Source of the DNA: an uncultured Sutterella sp.
GTDB lineage: Bacteria > Pseudomonadota > Gammaproteobacteria > Burkholderiales > Burkholderiaceae_F
Assembly: GCA_949282745.1 (NCBI GenBank)
Contig: CASDQM010000042.1
Coordinates: 322 to 64,321 of the forward strand
Length of the DNA: 64,000 bases
Reading direction: 5' to 3'
This document shows positions 49,422 to 53,977 of the stretch, in pieces. The position numbers and the translations under genes are program-made. The notes under the pieces were generated by a model that was given only the letters and a program-made list of their open reading frames with translations, was not told where the DNA came from and ran no database searches. Numbering within the stretch: the stretch's first letter is position 1; each line of letters opens with the position of its first letter.

Positions 49422-51992
49422 TCAGAATTCACGTCGTCGGGGGCGTCTCGGGATAAAGTCCGAAACCCAGCGCAGGAAGCGCTGAACGTCCACCAGTCCG
49501 ATGGCGGCCCAGGAGGGCGCGAGGCTGACGATCGATCGGATGCCGAGTCCCGCAAAGGCGAGGATCGCCCGCAGGGCTTCTCCAATTCCAACGCCCGGCT
49601 TGTGCAGTGCGTCGTCCCACAGGTGGTCCCGGCAGAAGGTCGCGGCGATGAAGCGCTTCTCTTCGGCAAGGCTTCGGAAGGTGAGTTCGATCCCGACCCC
49701 GCGTGCGTTGGCTCGGCGGACGATGCCCCGGAATTCGCACGGGACGCCTTCGTCCTCCAGAACGAGCGAAACGGCTTCGGAGGCGCGTAGAAGTCCCGCC
49801 GCTTCGGCGGGCATTTCGAGATTCACGCCCGTCTGCGAAAAGTCCCGCAGGGTCGCGTGCCAGACGGTTCCGTCGTCGCGGCGAAGCGACGCGCGGCGGC
49901 GCGTCGTCACGCGGTGAAAGCGCCGTTCCTGCACGGTCTCGACAGCCACGGCGACGGCCGCGGAGAGGATCACCATGTTGTAGAGGAGCCATACGGCGTT
50001 GACGAGAATCGTCGCGCCGTCGAGGCCGCTCGAAATGAACGCGCGTCCGAGGAGCCACAGGAGTCCCGCGACGTTGAGGGCGAGAAGCACCAGATAGGGG
50101 CGCGCGATGTGCCAGTCGAGGTGGTCGGAGTCGACCTGACCGCCCTTGGTCGTCACGTTGAACTTGCCTACGTGGGGCGCAAAAAGTGCGACCGTTGTCG
50201 GAATCGCGATGTACCAGGAGAGCACCGTGTCGTAGATTTCACCCATCAGAGGGAAGCGAAGTCCCCGTTGCGCGAACTCGTTCGAGAGATTGAGATGCAC
50301 GAGGTGCGGCACGACGAAGGCGAGAATCGCCAGTCCCGGCGCCTGAATGACGTTCGCGTCGAAGAAGACGAAGGGAAGCGGCGCGATGAGGAAGATGATC
50401 CTCGGAATGCCGAGGAGGAAGTAGAACATCCCGCTGAAGAAGCACAGCCGCTGTCCGAGCGAAAGGCCGCGCCCGAAAAGCGGATTGTCGAGACGGAAGA
50501 TCTGAATCATCCCGCGCGCCCAACGGATGCGCTGCCCGATGTGCGAGGCGAGCGTCTCGGTCGAAAGGCCCGCGGCAAGCGGCGTTGAAATGAAGGCCGA
50601 ACGCCATCCCCGTCGGTAGAGCCGAAGCGACGTATGGGCGTCTTCGGTGACGGTTTCGGTGGCGATTCCCCCGATTTCGTCGAGCGCCTCGCGGCGGATG
50701 ACGGTGCAGGAGCCGCAAAAGAGCGTCGCGTTCCAGGTGTCGTTGCCGCGCTGAATGAAGACGTGAAAGAGGGCGTCCTCCTGCGGTACGGCGTCCGTGA
50801 GACGGAGGTTGCGCTGATAGGGCGCGGGCGAATAGAAGTGATGCGGCGTCTGCACGAGCGCGATCTTTCGGTCGTGGAGCATCCAGCCCATGGTGTTGGT
50901 GAGGAAGGACCGCACCGGAATGTGGTCGCAGTCGAAGATCACGACGAATTCGCCGTGAATCTTGCCGAGCGCGTGATTGATGTTCCCCGCCTTGGCGCCC
51001 TTGTGTTCTTCTCGACGGATGTAGCCCACGCCCGCCTCTCGGGCGAAGGCCTGAAAGTCGTCGCGGTCGCCGTCGTCGAGAATCCAGACGTGCAGCTTTT
51101 CTTTGGGCCAGTCCATCGACAGCACCCCGAGGATCGTGGTGCGCACGAGTTCGAGAGGCTCGTTGTAGCTCGGAATGCAGACGTCGACGTGCGGCCACAG
51201 GGAGCGGTCTTCGGGAAGGGGGTAGGGCTTGCGGTCGAGCACCCAGAAGGTCTGGAAGTAACTGAGCGCCATCAGGACGAAGGTGTAGATCTCCGCCGTC
51301 ATGAGAAGCGCCGAAAAGACGTGTCCCTGAATCGAATCGAAATTGACCGTCTCGGTGAGGCGCCACCAGAGGTAGCGCGACGAGACGACGAGCGAGAGAA
51401 GGACGAGAAGCAGTACCGTGAGCCGAATGCGCACGAGCCGAAGCACGAGCGCAAGAGCGAAGGTGCAGGCGGAGAAGAGTACCTGGAAACGGGGGTCAAG
51501 ATGCTGCGTCACGCAGAGCGCGAAAAGGACGACCACGACGGCCCCGAGCAGCGCGAGAAGGATCGCGCGCATCGGACCGACGGGCTGCGGCTCGAGCTCG
51601 GCGAAGCGTTTGGCCTCGCGACGGTCCCAGGCCTTGAGCGAGACCGTCGCCCGGTACAGGAACCGAGCGGGCAGTGAGCGTTTTTTCTCCCGAACGGGCG
51701 TCGCGCGGGATGAAGAAGCGCCGCTGAAAAAGAGGAGAAAGAAGCTTTGGATCAGAATCCGCAGGCCGTCGAGCGGGCGGGTGCGGGCGGGATCGACGTT
51801 CGAGTAGAAGTCCGAAAAGCGGGCGCGCAGGGTTCGCCAGTTCGCGTTTTCCAAAGGCAAAAAGAGCCACGCCGCCGCCAGGAGGGCGCCGTTCACGATG
51901 GAGGAAACAAGCGACGTGGACTTTTCGAGGAGCTGCGCGCCTTCCCAATCCACGCCGCGGAAGAACCGCAGCAGGACGGTTTTGATCAGCAT
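49422..51992 (-). CDS. bcsA: Cellulose synthase catalytic subunit BcsA (GT2 + PilZ) with an enterobacterial-type N-terminal domain
   Basis: LDDG, KAGNIN, FDCDH, QTPH, TEDAH, QRIRWARG, gating loop FNVTTKG, PilZ RRFHR and DFSQTG. N-terminus FLPLENANW...RPLDGLR. Confidence 0.98.
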   Translation of the reverse strand: MLIKTVLLRFFRGVDWEGAQLLEKSTSLVSSIVNGALLAAAWLFLPLENANWRTLRARFSDFYSNVDPARTRPLDGLRILIQSFFLLFFSGASSSRATPVREKKRSLPARFLYRATVSLKAWDRREAKRFAELEPQPVGPMRAILLALLGAVVVVLFALCVTQHLDPRFQVLFSACTFALALVLRLVRIRLTVLLLVLLSLVVSSRYLWWRLTETVNFDSIQGHVFSALLMTAEIYTFVLMALSYFQTFWVLDRKPYPLPEDRSLWPHVDVCIPSYNEPLELVRTTILGVLSMDWPKEKLHVWILDDGDRDDFQAFAREAGVGYIRREEHKGAKAGNINHALGKIHGEFVVIFDCDHIPVRSFLTNTMGWMLHDRKIALVQTPHHFYSPAPYQRNLRLTDAVPQEDALFHVFIQRGNDTWNATLFCGSCTVIRREALDEIGGIATETVTEDAHTSLRLYRRGWRSAFISTPLAAGLSTETLASHIGQRIRWARGMIQIFRLDNPLFGRGLSLGQRLCFFSGMFYFLLGIPRIIFLIAPLPFVFFDANVIQAPGLAILAFVVPHLVHLNLSNEFAQRGLRFPLMGEIYDTVLSWYIAIPTTVALFAPHVGKFNVTTKGGQVDSDHLDWHIARPYLVLLALNVAGLLWLLGRAFISSGLDGATILVNAVWLLYNMVILSAAVAVAVETVQERRFHRVTTRRRASLRRDDGTVWHATLRDFSQTGVNLEMPAEAAGLLRASEAVSLVLEDEGVPCEFRGIVRRANARGVGIELTFRSLAEEKRFIAATFCRDHLWDDALHKPGVGIGEALRAILAFAGLGIRSIVSLAPSWAAIGLVDVQRFLRWVSDFIPRRPRRREF

Positions 51993-52936
51993 CGGGCTTC
52001 CTCACGAAGTCGGGCGGCGCGAAGGATCAGCCAGGTGGAAAGCGCGGCGATCGCCTGGGCGCTTTCGGAAAAGCGGGCGAGCTGCGTCACGGGTCCGCGC
52101 TGCAGGGCGGACCGGGCGGCGAACTCGTCGAGAGGAATGTTCTGCGGCGCAATGCGGGCGGCAAGTCCCGGCGTCGCGCGCAGGAACTGCATCACGTCAG
52201 TGTGACTTTGCAGGGAGCTCAGCGCCTTGTTGAAGAGAACCACCTCGTTGTGGGCGATGGAGTCTTCAGACAACTTCATCGCCGTGTGGGTGTCGGGTTC
52301 CGCCACGGTGACGACGATGTCCGCCGCGTTGCGCCAACGGCGCGCCGCGTCTCCGTCGGCATGACCGAGGTCGACGACGACGTGCGTGAAGCCCGAGCCG
52401 CAGAGAGCGGCAGGGTCGAACTTGGAGGGAGGGTGCTCGGAATTTCCGTTCCCGTTTTCGTGGATGTCGAGCGCAAGAAAGAGCGGATCCGAATAACGCC
52501 AGAACGTGTCGCGAAACGCATCTTCGGAGGTGGGCGGCGCCGGCAGATTGAAGAGGGCGCAAAAGCCCGAACAATTGCATTGCGGCGCAACGGCGAGCAC
52601 GCGGCTGTCGCGGCGGGAACTTAATTGCCAGGCGGCTGCCGAGGCGACGGTCGAGCTTCCCGCGCCTTCGCGAAGGCTCTGGAAAACAAGTACGATCGGG
52701 CGTTTTTCAACGGAGAGAGGCTTTGCGGAGTGTCCGGCAGTAACGGCGTTTTCGGACGCAGGAGCGCCTCTCCCGCTCAGAAAGGCGAGAAGACCGTATT
52801 GCCGGACAAGCGTCTCCCGCCGGGCTGCATCCCGTGCCGGAATCGAAGACGGGGAAATTGTTGCGGGCGTGCAGGAACGAAGTCGCGAGGCGACAGAATC
52901 ATTCGACGTCATGCTCTCAGGTTCAGCGTTCGACAA
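51986..52936 (-). CDS. bcsQ: BcsQ (MinD/ParA-like) with a ~70-aa N-terminal extension resembling BcsR (putative BcsR-BcsQ fusion); start may be TTG 52936 or ATG 52912
   Basis: VFQSLREGAGSSTVASAAAWQL (deviant Walker A), VVVDL, LFNK, IPLDE and SESAQAIAALSTWL. Overlaps the bcsA start. Confidence 0.85.
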   Translation of the reverse strand: MSNAEPESMTSNDSVASRLRSCTPATISPSSIPARDAARRETLVRQYGLLAFLSGRGAPASENAVTAGHSAKPLSVEKRPIVLVFQSLREGAGSSTVASAAAWQLSSRRDSRVLAVAPQCNCSGFCALFNLPAPPTSEDAFRDTFWRYSDPLFLALDIHENGNGNSEHPPSKFDPAALCGSGFTHVVVDLGHADGDAARRWRNAADIVVTVAEPDTHTAMKLSEDSIAHNEVVLFNKALSSLQSHTDVMQFLRATPGLAARIAPQNIPLDEFAARSALQRGPVTQLARFSESAQAIAALSTWLILRAARLREEARC

Positions 52937-53608
52937 TCAAAGGAAAGGGTGGGTGTGGGGATGCAGTATCGGGAATTATTATTCCATTTTCTTGGAGAAA
53001 AAAGGAATGCGGATAAGCAAAAAGATCCTTACTTGCTGAATGCGTAAGGTGTATTAAGGGTAAACCCGAAGGACAGCATTGATAACACAGAAGCAAGAGT
53101 TGGCGCAAGCGGGCAAGAGGAAAAAGTTTGCCCTCGATTTTCAGGGTTATTGCATCCCTTCTTAAGAGCCGCAGAGAAAAACGAAGAAAAAGAGGGAGAC
53201 GGGACATTGTGAATCCGAGATCCGGTCTTGATCGAATTTCGCCGTTGCGGGTACAGGACCGTTCTGTCCGGGGAACGATGACCAACAGACGAGAACGGCG
53301 GAACAGGAAAAGCCGAGTCCCCGTGAATGTTCATGATTTCAAGATCGGACCGGGAAATGAGAAGTACGACACTTCGTATCGACTGCGCAACTGGGGGAGT
53401 ACGTGCTGTTGGAAACTCTTCTCTTCTCTGTCAGTGTTTCTGAAACCGATACTGAATTCACTCTTCGCGGCTCTTTTCGCCGTCCGTAAGGAGGGGCTGT
53501 CGTTTCACATACTTATGGTTAACCCTTACGTGTTTTGCGGCCTTCGCGAACGCGCCGCCGCCTTCAGCCCGGTGCCACCCCCTCCTCTCTTTCGGAGACC
53601 ACTACGCA

Positions 53609-53977
53609 ATGATGAATCAACCGTTGGAACACACTTTTCACCGTCGCCTGCCCTCCCGCATTCTTTCCCGTGAAATTCGCGAGCAGGCTCTCGAACTCTT
53701 CGAGCAGGGACTCGGTCACAAGACAGTGGCAAAGCGTCTGGCGATTTCACCGCACACGACGCGCGACTGGGGCCGAGCCTTCCGCGAAAACCGCTTTTAC
53801 CCGGCCGTCTCGACGCATCTCTACTGTTATGACGACGATGCCAAATCGACCGTCTGGAGCCTGGCGCTCCAAGGTTTCACCATCAGTGAAATCTCAAAAA
53901 AGACGAACATCAGCCGCAGCACCTGCTACGCCTGGATTCGGGCCCGCCGCGCCAAGACCGCCGGCCGCGCGAGTTGA
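53609..53977 (+). CDS. Small tandem helix-turn-helix protein (IS3 OrfA-like fold), possible regulator
   Basis: Two HTH units, ALELFEQGLGHKTVAKRLAISPHTTRDW and LALQGFTISEISKKTNISRSTCYAW. No integrase ORF follows. Confidence 0.75.
   Translation: MMNQPLEHTFHRRLPSRILSREIREQALELFEQGLGHKTVAKRLAISPHTTRDWGRAFRENRFYPAVSTHLYCYDDDAKSTVWSLALQGFTISEISKKTNISRSTCYAWIRARRAKTAGRAS

What the first reader, a model, noticed from the sequence alone, without database searches (positions are those of the whole stretch)
52690..52936. Apparent natural BcsR-BcsQ fusion
Seen: the BcsQ-like domain starts only about 78 aa into an uninterrupted ORF, and no separate bcsR is visible upstream. The extension (MSNAEPES...SND...RRETLVRQYGLLAFLS) echoes E. 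coli BcsR as I recall it (MNNNEPD...QND...REQLAAALKRWPLLAEFA). Known: BcsR and BcsQ are normally separate proteins forming a BcsR2Q2 complex that regulates BcsA. Inference: a fused polypeptide fixes the 1:1 stoichiometry. Similarity is weak and judged by eye.
Basis: partly seen in the sequence, partly recalled or inferred. Interest (0 to 1): 0.7.

Follow-up and report, generated by a model that had tools for sequence, protein, structure and literature searches.

The report
BcsQ with a BcsR-sized extension
A gut Sutterella cellulose operon starts with a BcsQ ATPase carrying a real, conserved 72-residue N-terminal extension where relatives have a separate small bcsR gene, so it is probably an old bcsR-bcsQ fusion, a kind reviews already mention, but no test shows the extension is BcsR.

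Summary
The ORF is real. It runs 51986-52936 on the minus strand, and its likely start is ATG 52912, giving 308 aa. It heads a complete type II cellulose cluster in a Sutterella genome. The BcsQ domain begins at residue 73 (Pfam, and Foldseek to E. coli BcsQ). No canonical start codon lies between codon 9 and codon 113, so the P-loop can only be made if the extension is translated.

The extension is kept in at least 8 protein clusters from independent assemblies. Residues 1-47 are under purifying selection, and a roughly 25-residue linker evolves freely. The genome has no separate bcsR. Sister Sutterella operons have a demonstrable 66-79 aa BcsR gene that overlaps the bcsQ start.

The claimed similarity to BcsR is not supported. 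Pfam, custom HMMs, hhalign, permutation tests and an exhaustive search of 1.84 billion proteins all failed. Part of the "echo" also lies upstream of the likely start.

BcsR-BcsQ fusions are already noted in the literature, and I found a recognisable one in the same order with the same layout.

Verdict: a probable ancient bcsR-bcsQ fusion diverged beyond recognition (about 0.5), or an unrelated extension that replaced BcsR (about 0.35). Interest is modest.

The parts
51986..52912 (-). Extended bcsQ gene, 308 aa from ATG 52912. It is the first gene of the cellulose operon and overlaps the bcsA start by 7 nt.
   Evidence: ORF list. Pfam PF06564 49.4 bits. Homologues P0001-P0007 and P0010 all start at this position.
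52913..52936 (-). Eight in-frame codons from TTG 52936 (LSNAEPES). Most likely untranslated leader, conserved at DNA level.
   Evidence: No Shine-Dalgarno site before the TTG, and a TGA immediately upstream. Gene calls in all homologues start at the ATG. Leader DNA is conserved in L009 and L010.
52844..52912 (-). Extension residues 1-23 (MTSNDSVASRLRSCTPATISPSS). Ser/Thr/Pro-rich, predicted disordered, but constrained.
   Evidence: AF2 pLDDT about 35. dN/dS 0.12-0.38 among window, L009 and L010.
52772..52843 (-). Extension residues 24-47 (IPARDAARRETLVRQYGLLAFLSG). A single predicted helix with a polar N-terminal half and a hydrophobic C-terminal half. It carries the only motif shared with the distant P0010 lineage (RR..L...Y.[LF]L..L).
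   Evidence: AF2 helix 24-47, pLDDT 52-56. dN/dS 0.16-0.34. Invariant R31 R32 L35 Y39 L42 L45.
52697..52771 (-). Linker residues 48-72. Gly/Pro/Ser/Ala-rich, variable in length (21-33 aa), evolving almost neutrally.
   Evidence: dN/dS 0.63-1.3. pLDDT 30-39. Indels in the alignment.
51986..52696 (-). BcsQ SIMIBI ATPase domain, residues 73-308, plus stop codon.
   Evidence: AF2 pLDDT 85-95. Foldseek top six hits are E. coli BcsQ chains (6YB5_A and others, TM 0.76, E 1e-12), ahead of ParA/Soj/MinD.
52649..52678 (-). Deviant Walker A, SLREGAGSST (residues 79-88). It has no P-loop lysine, like E. coli BcsQ GVRGGVGTTT.
   Evidence: Sequence. G83, G85 and S87 are invariant in alignment A4. E. coli motif quoted from PMC8892547.
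52972..52985 (-). Conserved inverted repeat GGAATAATAATTCC, 60-73 nt upstream of the ATG. Candidate operator or -10 region of the operon.
   Evidence: Conserved in window, L009 and L010. The consensus promoter scan found nothing, so function is inferred only.
49422..51992 (-). bcsA, the cellulose synthase with a PilZ domain. It is the next gene downstream.
   Evidence: Pfam GT2, Cellulose_synt and PilZ. 54-55% identical to the BcsA that follows bcsR-bcsQ in sister Sutterella genomes.

Best explanation
The gene encodes the BcsQ regulator of a type II cellulose synthase, with a translated 72-residue N-terminal extension that stands where bcsR stands in related operons. The most likely history is that an ancestral bcsR, whose stop codon overlapped the bcsQ start (ATGA) as it still does in sister Sutterella species, was joined in frame to bcsQ. 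The BcsR part then diverged beyond recognition. What remains is a constrained N-terminal segment and one amphipathic helix, tethered to BcsQ by a freely evolving linker of about 25 residues.

The inferred mechanism is as follows. The tethered helix does the job of the BcsR C-terminal domain, packing on the BcsQ sandwich-dimer interface and stabilising it. The N-terminal segment may contact BcsA. Covalent linkage fixes the 1:1 ratio and relaxes the need for a high-affinity BcsR-BcsQ interface, which would explain the fast divergence.

Shown: ORF continuity, conservation and selection on the extension, the BcsQ fold, the operon context, the absence of a separate bcsR, and separate bcsR genes in sister lineages. 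Inferred: BcsR ancestry and any BcsR-like function.
For: (1) The window holds a complete type II cluster on one strand: extended bcsQ, bcsA, B, Z, C, then bcsE, a bcsF-like ORF and bcsG. Only bcsR is missing as a separate gene, and the genome has none elsewhere.
(2) Five other genomes of the same genus have a 66-79 aa ORF that abuts or overlaps the bcsQ start (a 4-nt ATGA overlap where coordinates were listed, L004 and L005). These ORFs are real BcsR. They keep the D21/L25/F29/L31/Y36 pattern. Against canonical BcsR they score permutation z 6.5 and hhalign P 0.0018 over 42 collinear columns. The BcsA next to them is the closest relative of the window's BcsA (54-55% identity, against 45-46% in other families).
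(3) The extension is 72 aa, the same size as those BcsR proteins.
(4) It must be translated, because there is no canonical start before codon 113. It is kept in at least 8 protein clusters from independent assemblies. dN/dS is 0.12-0.38 for residues 1-47 against 0.6-1.3 for the linker.
(5) P0013 is a recognisable BcsR-BcsQ fusion in the same order (Pfam BcsR at 14-52, BcsQ at 74-306). Under AF2 it has the same layout: disordered segment, one low-confidence helix, disordered linker, beta1 at 73-79.
(6) The literature states that BcsR and BcsQ occur 'as separate or fused subunits' (PMC8892547).
Against: No test detects BcsR in the extension.
- PF10945 gives no hit.
- HMMs built from Sutterella BcsR, canonical BcsR, or both do not list the ORF at E<100 among 40,796 six-frame ORFs. 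The combined HMM does find BcsR next to bcsQ in 8 of 15 other loci of the order, four of them not from genomes used to build it, plus the P0013 fusion.
- hhalign gives P 0.07-0.18.
- Permutation tests give z -0.1 against the Sutterella BcsR set, 1.8 against canonical BcsR, and p 0.25 for collinear alignment.
- An exhaustive profile search of 1.84e9 proteins finds only the same narrow clade and no free-standing relative.
- The residues that define the BcsR alphaN helix (D21, L25, F29, L31, Y36) are not kept. The candidate Asp is Val in P0005-P0007.
- AF2 gives one low-confidence helix, not a V-shaped hairpin.

These tests have low power. Extension identity within the clade is already only 19% at 46% BcsQ-domain identity, and the BcsQ domains of the two lineages are only 25-30% identical.
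Confidence: 0.5

Rival explanations
1. The extension is unrelated to BcsR. bcsR was lost from this lineage, for instance during the rearrangements that put mobile or phage genes upstream. BcsQ then acquired a new N-terminal extension from upstream sequence. It now acts as a solubility tail ('entropic bristle') or binds another partner such as BcsE or BcsA.
For: All sequence and profile tests for BcsR are negative. The key BcsR alphaN residues are absent. The upstream neighbours differ and are mobile-element-like: an HTH/transposase-like ORF in the window, and AntA/SSB phage genes in L018. Most of the extension is predicted disordered.
Against: The size matches BcsR, and the layout matches a bona fide fusion. 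Residues 1-47 are as constrained as the ATPase domain, which a mere solubility tail would not need. In E. coli, BcsQ is unstable without BcsR (PMC7439463, PMC7840130), so simple loss of BcsR is unlikely in an otherwise intact cluster.
Confidence: 0.35
2. The extension is not part of the mature functional protein. Translation starts at a rare codon near the domain (ATC at codon 81, CTG at codon 53), or the gene is decaying.
For: The Shine-Dalgarno site before ATG 52912 is weak (GAGAG, 1 nt spacing). A sister lineage (L051-L054) carries a +1 frameshift in the linker and is called as a 246-aa BcsQ from an internal out-of-frame ATG. Several other frameshifted alleles exist in metagenome assemblies (P0011, P0028, P0029).
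Against: Residues 1-47 are under purifying selection. The frame stays open in all full-length homologues. A strong GGGAGG site precedes the extension start in the P0010 lineage. There is no Shine-Dalgarno site before the rare internal codons.
Confidence: 0.08
3. Assembly or sequencing error joined two separate genes.
For: The genome is a 55-contig draft.
Against: The same continuous frame appears in many independent assemblies and samples: clusters with 13-225 members, and loci L009, L010, L018-L020 and L055-L058.
Confidence: 0.01

Closest known systems
BcsR-BcsQ fused subunits of bacterial cellulose secretion systems (noted in Abidi et al. 2021, FEMS Microbiol Rev, PMC8892547, citing Romling & Galperin 2015). 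Example found here: P0013, 332 aa, JGI 'YhjQ', from another family of the same order.
   Same: A single polypeptide with a module of about 72 aa, then a disordered linker of about 20-25 aa, then BcsQ with beta1 at residues 73-79. It sits directly upstream of bcsA.
   Different: P0013's N-terminal part is recognisable as BcsR (DDVAGL...Y...RQHWPLL; Pfam 20.1 bits, my HMM E 3e-4). The window's extension is not. The two BcsQ domains are barely alignable by BLAST (about 21 bits), so the fusions are probably independent events.
E. coli BcsR2Q2 complex (PDB 6YB3, 6YB5, 9FNN; PMC7840130, PMC11470070)
   Same: Same BcsQ fold (Foldseek TM 0.76). Deviant lysine-less Walker A. Same operon position ahead of bcsA in a cluster with bcsE, F and G.
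   Different: In E. coli, BcsR is a separate 62-aa protein. Its alphaN helix (D21-S30) binds BcsA, and its V-shaped C-terminal hairpin stitches the BcsQ dimer. Here there is no separate BcsR, no alphaN residue pattern, and only one predicted helix.
Separate bcsR-bcsQ pairs of other Sutterella species (L004-L008)
   Same: Same genus. BcsA is orthologous (54-55% identity). The small gene is the same size as the extension and abuts bcsQ.
   Different: There the two genes are in different frames, overlapping by ATGA where the coordinates were listed (L004, L005), and the small protein is demonstrably BcsR. The BcsQ domains are only 25-30% identical to the window's.
BcsP (a BcsR-like domain followed by a long Pro/Ala-rich tail, in bcsPDQ-type clusters; L011, L013)
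   Same: A BcsR-family module followed by a low-complexity region, just upstream of bcsQ.
   Different: BcsP is a separate protein with a clear PF10945 hit (52-70 bits) and follows bcsD. The window has neither.

Membership tests
BcsQ (Pfam PF06564 CBP_BcsQ; SIMIBI ATPase) | Profile match above the Pfam gathering score | tested here: met
   49.4 bits against a cut-off of 21.3, E 5e-13, in two stretches.
BcsQ (NCBIfam TIGR03371 / NF007460 equivalogs) | Score above the curated equivalog cut-off | tested here: not met
   43.8 bits against 157.85, and 27.1 against 399. The domain is a divergent BcsQ, not an equivalog by NCBI thresholds.
BcsQ | alpha-beta-alpha SIMIBI fold closest to solved BcsQ | tested here: met
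   The six best Foldseek hits are E. coli BcsQ chains (E 1e-12 to 5e-11, TM 0.76-0.77), ahead of ParA/Soj/MinD.
BcsQ | Encoded directly upstream of bcsA in a bcs operon | tested here: met
   7-nt overlap with bcsA. bcsB, Z, C, E, F-like and G follow on the same strand.
BcsR (Pfam PF10945 CBP_BcsR) | Profile match to the family model | tested here: not met
   No hit at E<=10 for the extension. No hit in the window in the whole-genome scan. Custom HMMs also fail. hhalign P 0.18.
BcsR | N-proximal helix with the conserved Asp and hydrophobic plug (E. coli D21, L25, F29, L31, Y36; PMC11470070) | tested here: not met
   Under the best by-eye alignment these positions are D/V, S, S, T, S. The Asp is Val in P0005-P0007.
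BcsR | C-terminal helical hairpin with the RWPLL-type motif that binds the BcsQ dimer interface | tested here: inconclusive
   MAFFT places RQYGLL under RWPLL in all three modes, but this is not significant. AF2 monomer gives one helix, 24-47, at pLDDT about 54. The true fusion P0013 looks the same, so AF2 monomer cannot discriminate.
BcsR | Small (about 60-80 aa) module encoded immediately 5' of, or fused to, bcsQ | tested here: met
   72 aa, in frame, directly before the BcsQ domain. Sister genomes have 66-79 aa BcsR at this place.
BcsR | Forms a 2:2 complex with BcsQ and is needed for BcsQ stability and cellulose secretion | not testable with these tools
   Needs multimer modelling or biochemistry.
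BcsP | PF10945 domain plus a long Pro/Ala-rich C-terminal region, as a separate protein after bcsD | tested here: not met
   No PF10945 hit, and no bcsD in the window.

The most novel reading that the evidence does not exclude
The extension is not a BcsR descendant. It is an independently evolved module confined to a narrow Sutterella clade, covalently tethered to BcsQ, that replaces BcsR in an otherwise canonical type II cellulose machine. That would show that the 'essential' BcsR can be substituted by an unrelated peptide once it is linked to BcsQ.
Probability: 0.3. Interest if true: 0.45.

Novelty: new variant of a known kind. Interest (0 to 1): 0.28.

Why it matters
BcsR is essential in E. 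coli. It chaperones BcsQ and activates BcsA through its N-terminal helix. A natural protein in which the BcsR position is covalently joined to BcsQ, but the BcsA-binding residues are gone, gives a ready-made test of which BcsR functions need a free subunit and which need only tethering.

The finding also documents a complete type II (pEtN-cellulose-type) bcs cluster in Sutterella, a common human gut genus. I found no paper combining Sutterella, cellulose and bcsA.

The general phenomenon of BcsR-BcsQ fusion is already in the literature, so the gain is incremental.

Tried and rejected
- Pfam and NCBIfam scans of the extension alone and of the whole protein: only BcsQ was found.
- PF10945 scan of the whole genome: two chance hits elsewhere, none in the window.
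- Three custom HMMs against all six-frame ORFs of the genome: the ORF is not listed at E<100.
- hhalign in the Python box and through protein comparison: P 0.03-0.29. The control, Sutterella BcsR against canonical BcsR, gave P 0.0018.
I replaced it with Smith-Waterman and ungapped collinear permutation tests.
- PDB sequence search with extension and sORF profiles: 0 hits.
- Exhaustive profile search: only the same clade, plus a junk tandem-repeat translation, P0012.
- An alternative by-eye alignment of TLVRQYGLL (ALGKKYSFL in P0010) to the BcsR alphaN motif ALGRVYGFS was hhalign's top local match, but not significant. I kept it only as a rival alignment.
- The 47-codon frame upstream (53461-53601, '...RQPLL...') that my HMM listed at E 13 has no start codon and no other motif, so I rejected it as noise.
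- The 120-aa upstream ORF 52923-53285 is not conserved in L010 and overlaps the conserved leader/promoter DNA, so I rejected it as a gene.
- Rfam and promoter/terminator scans of the leader found nothing.
- The homologue search with the P0013 fusion returned only itself.
- Romling & Galperin 2015 is not held in the library. The 'fused' statement is therefore cited second-hand from PMC8892547.

Full report
**What is there.** On the minus strand, an ORF runs from TTG 52936 to the stop at 51986 (316 aa). Its first ATG is at 52912, giving 308 aa. Pfam finds CBP_BcsQ (49.4 bits, E 5e-13) and nothing else. The NCBIfam BcsQ equivalogs match but score far below their cut-offs, so the domain is a divergent BcsQ. 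An AlphaFold2 model built on a 14-sequence alignment is confident for residues 73-308 (pLDDT 85-95). Its six best Foldseek hits in the PDB are the E. coli BcsQ chains of the BcsRQ crystals (TM 0.76, E about 1e-12), ahead of ParA, Soj and MinD.

**Operon context.** The gene overlaps bcsA by 7 nt. It is followed on the same strand by bcsB, bcsZ and bcsC, then an EAL gene, a solute-binding protein and a GGDEF cyclase, then bcsE, a bcsF-like 71-aa membrane ORF and bcsG, then a large EAL gene and a CheB-CheR-PAS fusion. This is a complete type II, E. coli-like cluster in which only bcsR is missing as a separate gene. Related contigs are titled 'uncultured Sutterella sp.'.

**The extension is real and translated.** There is no in-frame ATG, GTG or TTG between codon 9 and codon 113, and codon 113 lies beyond the Walker A motif. 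A BcsQ with a P-loop can therefore only be made if the extension is translated. The extended form is found in at least 8 protein clusters from many independent assemblies (65-99% identity, plus a distant lineage, P0010, at 41%). All start at the position of ATG 52912. In the P0010 lineage the homologous GTG start is preceded by GGGAGG.

The eight codons between TTG 52936 and the ATG are conserved as DNA, together with the rest of the leader. That leader includes an inverted repeat, GGAATAATAATTCC, 60-73 nt upstream.

Codon analysis among the window, L009 and L010 gives these dN/dS values:

| Segment | dN/dS |
|---|---|
| Residues 1-23 | 0.12-0.38 |
| Predicted helix 24-47 | 0.16-0.34 |
| Linker 48-72 | 0.63-1.3 |
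| BcsQ domain | 0.38-0.46 |

So the extension is a constrained module joined to the ATPase by a freely evolving linker.

**Is it BcsR? Direct tests.** Every direct test is negative.
- PF10945 does not hit the extension at E<=10, nor anything in the window in a whole-genome scan.
- I built HMMs from canonical BcsR/BcsP sequences of the same order, from the small ORFs of sister Sutterella genomes, and from both. None lists this ORF at E<100 among 40,796 six-frame ORFs of the genome. The combined HMM does find a BcsR or BcsP ORF abutting bcsQ in 8 of 15 true BcsQ loci of the order, four of them not from genomes used to build it. It also finds one in-frame fusion, which was not used to build it.
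- hhalign gives P 0.07 against the Sutterella small ORFs and 0.18 against canonical BcsR, with probabilities below 1%.
- Column-permutation tests give z -0.1 (Sutterella ORFs), 1.8 (canonical, p 0.05) and 1.1 (all). An ungapped collinear test gives p 0.25.
- A profile of the extension searched against 1.84 billion representative proteins finds only its own clade and a junk repeat.
- PDB sequence searches find nothing.
- The residues that define the BcsA-binding helix of BcsR (D21, L25, F29, L31, Y36; PMC11470070) are not kept, and the candidate Asp is Val in several members.

That is not beyond chance.

**Is it BcsR? Indirect evidence.** Five other genomes of the same genus have a 66-79 aa ORF directly before bcsQ. 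Where the ORF coordinates were listed (L004, L005), it overlaps the bcsQ start by 4 nt. Pfam misses these ORFs too, but they are demonstrably BcsR. They keep the D...L...[FY].[LF]....Y pattern and the P-L-[FM] motif. Against canonical BcsR they score z 6.5 in the same permutation test, and hhalign aligns them over 42 collinear columns (P 0.0018). The BcsA next to them is the closest relative of the window's BcsA (54-55% identity, against 45-46% for other families), so the operons are orthologous.

The extension (72 aa) has the size of those BcsR proteins and sits in their place. The tests above also have little power. Within the fused clade, the extension is only 19% identical where the BcsQ domain is 46% identical. 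The BcsQ domains of the fused and unfused lineages are only 25-30% identical.

[quoted passage not shown] In a 251-genome sample of the order, I found one single-frame protein, P0013 (332 aa, called 'YhjQ' by JGI), with Pfam BcsR at 14-52 (20.1 bits, below the cut-off) and BcsQ at 74-306.

Folded as a control, P0013 gives the same picture as the window's protein: a disordered N-terminus, one low-confidence helix (31-44), a disordered linker, and beta1 at 73-79. So an AF2 monomer cannot tell a true fused BcsR from an unrelated tail. The layouts, however, coincide. The two BcsQ domains are almost unalignable by BLAST, so if both are fusions they arose independently.

**Verdict.** Its similarity component is not supported. 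My best explanation is an old in-frame bcsR-bcsQ fusion whose BcsR part has diverged beyond recognition (0.5). The main rival is an unrelated extension that took over after loss of bcsR (0.35). Minor rivals are a wrong start or a decaying gene (0.08) and an assembly error (0.01).

The tethered helix most plausibly binds the BcsQ dimer interface as the BcsR C-terminal domain does. This is inferred, not shown. Because fused BcsR-BcsQ is already a recognised arrangement, this is a new variant of a known kind, of modest interest.

**Side observation bearing on the claim.** In a sister species (P0004 group, 67% identical), a common strain lineage carries CCCCCCC where the fused allele has CCCCG in the linker. 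This shifts the frame by +1. Gene callers then report a 246-aa BcsQ starting at an out-of-frame ATG 13 codons before beta1, and the extension frame runs on out of frame. This allele is linked to other substitutions (98% identity), so it is a fixed strain difference, not slippage within a strain. It shows that decoupled versions exist in nature. Whether they still make cellulose is unknown.

Noticed in passing
L051-L054 (1339-1600) versus L055-L058 (301-560): In a sister Sutterella species, a widespread strain lineage (P0031, carried on at least 24 contigs read) has a +1 frameshift in the extension-BcsQ linker (CCCCG to CCCCCCC). This separates the extension from a 246-aa BcsQ that starts at an out-of-frame ATG. 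All five other differences in 260 nt are non-synonymous.
   Followed up: partly
Proteins P0011, P0028, P0029 (relatives of the window ORF): Further frameshifted or truncated alleles of the extended bcsQ occur in metagenome assemblies. This may reflect recurrent inactivation of the gene in some strains, or assembly errors.
   Followed up: no
window 28882-52936, minus strand: About 24 kb of same-strand genes form a complete type II cellulose cluster: extended bcsQ, bcsA, B, Z, C, EAL, solute-binding protein, GGDEF, bcsE, bcsF-like, bcsG, large EAL, and a CheB-CheR-PAS fusion. I found no paper combining Sutterella, cellulose and bcsA.
   Followed up: partly
own genome G000, contig C15:32300-34825 (outside the window): A second bcsA paralogue, 47% identical to the window's, with no BcsQ detected nearby. 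Many genomes of the genus carry this second type as well.
   Followed up: no
window 52972-52985: Inverted repeat GGAATAATAATTCC (read on the minus strand), 60-73 nt upstream of the ATG. It is conserved in L009 and L010 within a conserved leader. It is a candidate operator or -10 region for the operon.
   Followed up: partly
window 52649-52678: The Walker A of this BcsQ reads SLREGAGSST, with Glu where E. coli has Gly (RGGVGTTT) and no lysine. The same REG[AT]GSS form occurs in two sister lineages (L007, L008). ATP binding may be altered.
   Followed up: no
window 53609-53977, plus strand: A 122-aa ORF with two helix-turn-helix motifs of transposase type (HTH_23, HTH_Tnp_1) lies divergently, about 670 nt upstream of the operon. 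In the P0010 lineage the upstream neighbours are phage-like instead (AntA/ANT, SSB).
   Followed up: no
L004-L008 small ORFs upstream of bcsQ: Pfam PF10945 misses the BcsR proteins of Sutterella entirely, although they keep all key BcsR residues. The family model under-detects BcsR in this genus.
   Followed up: yes
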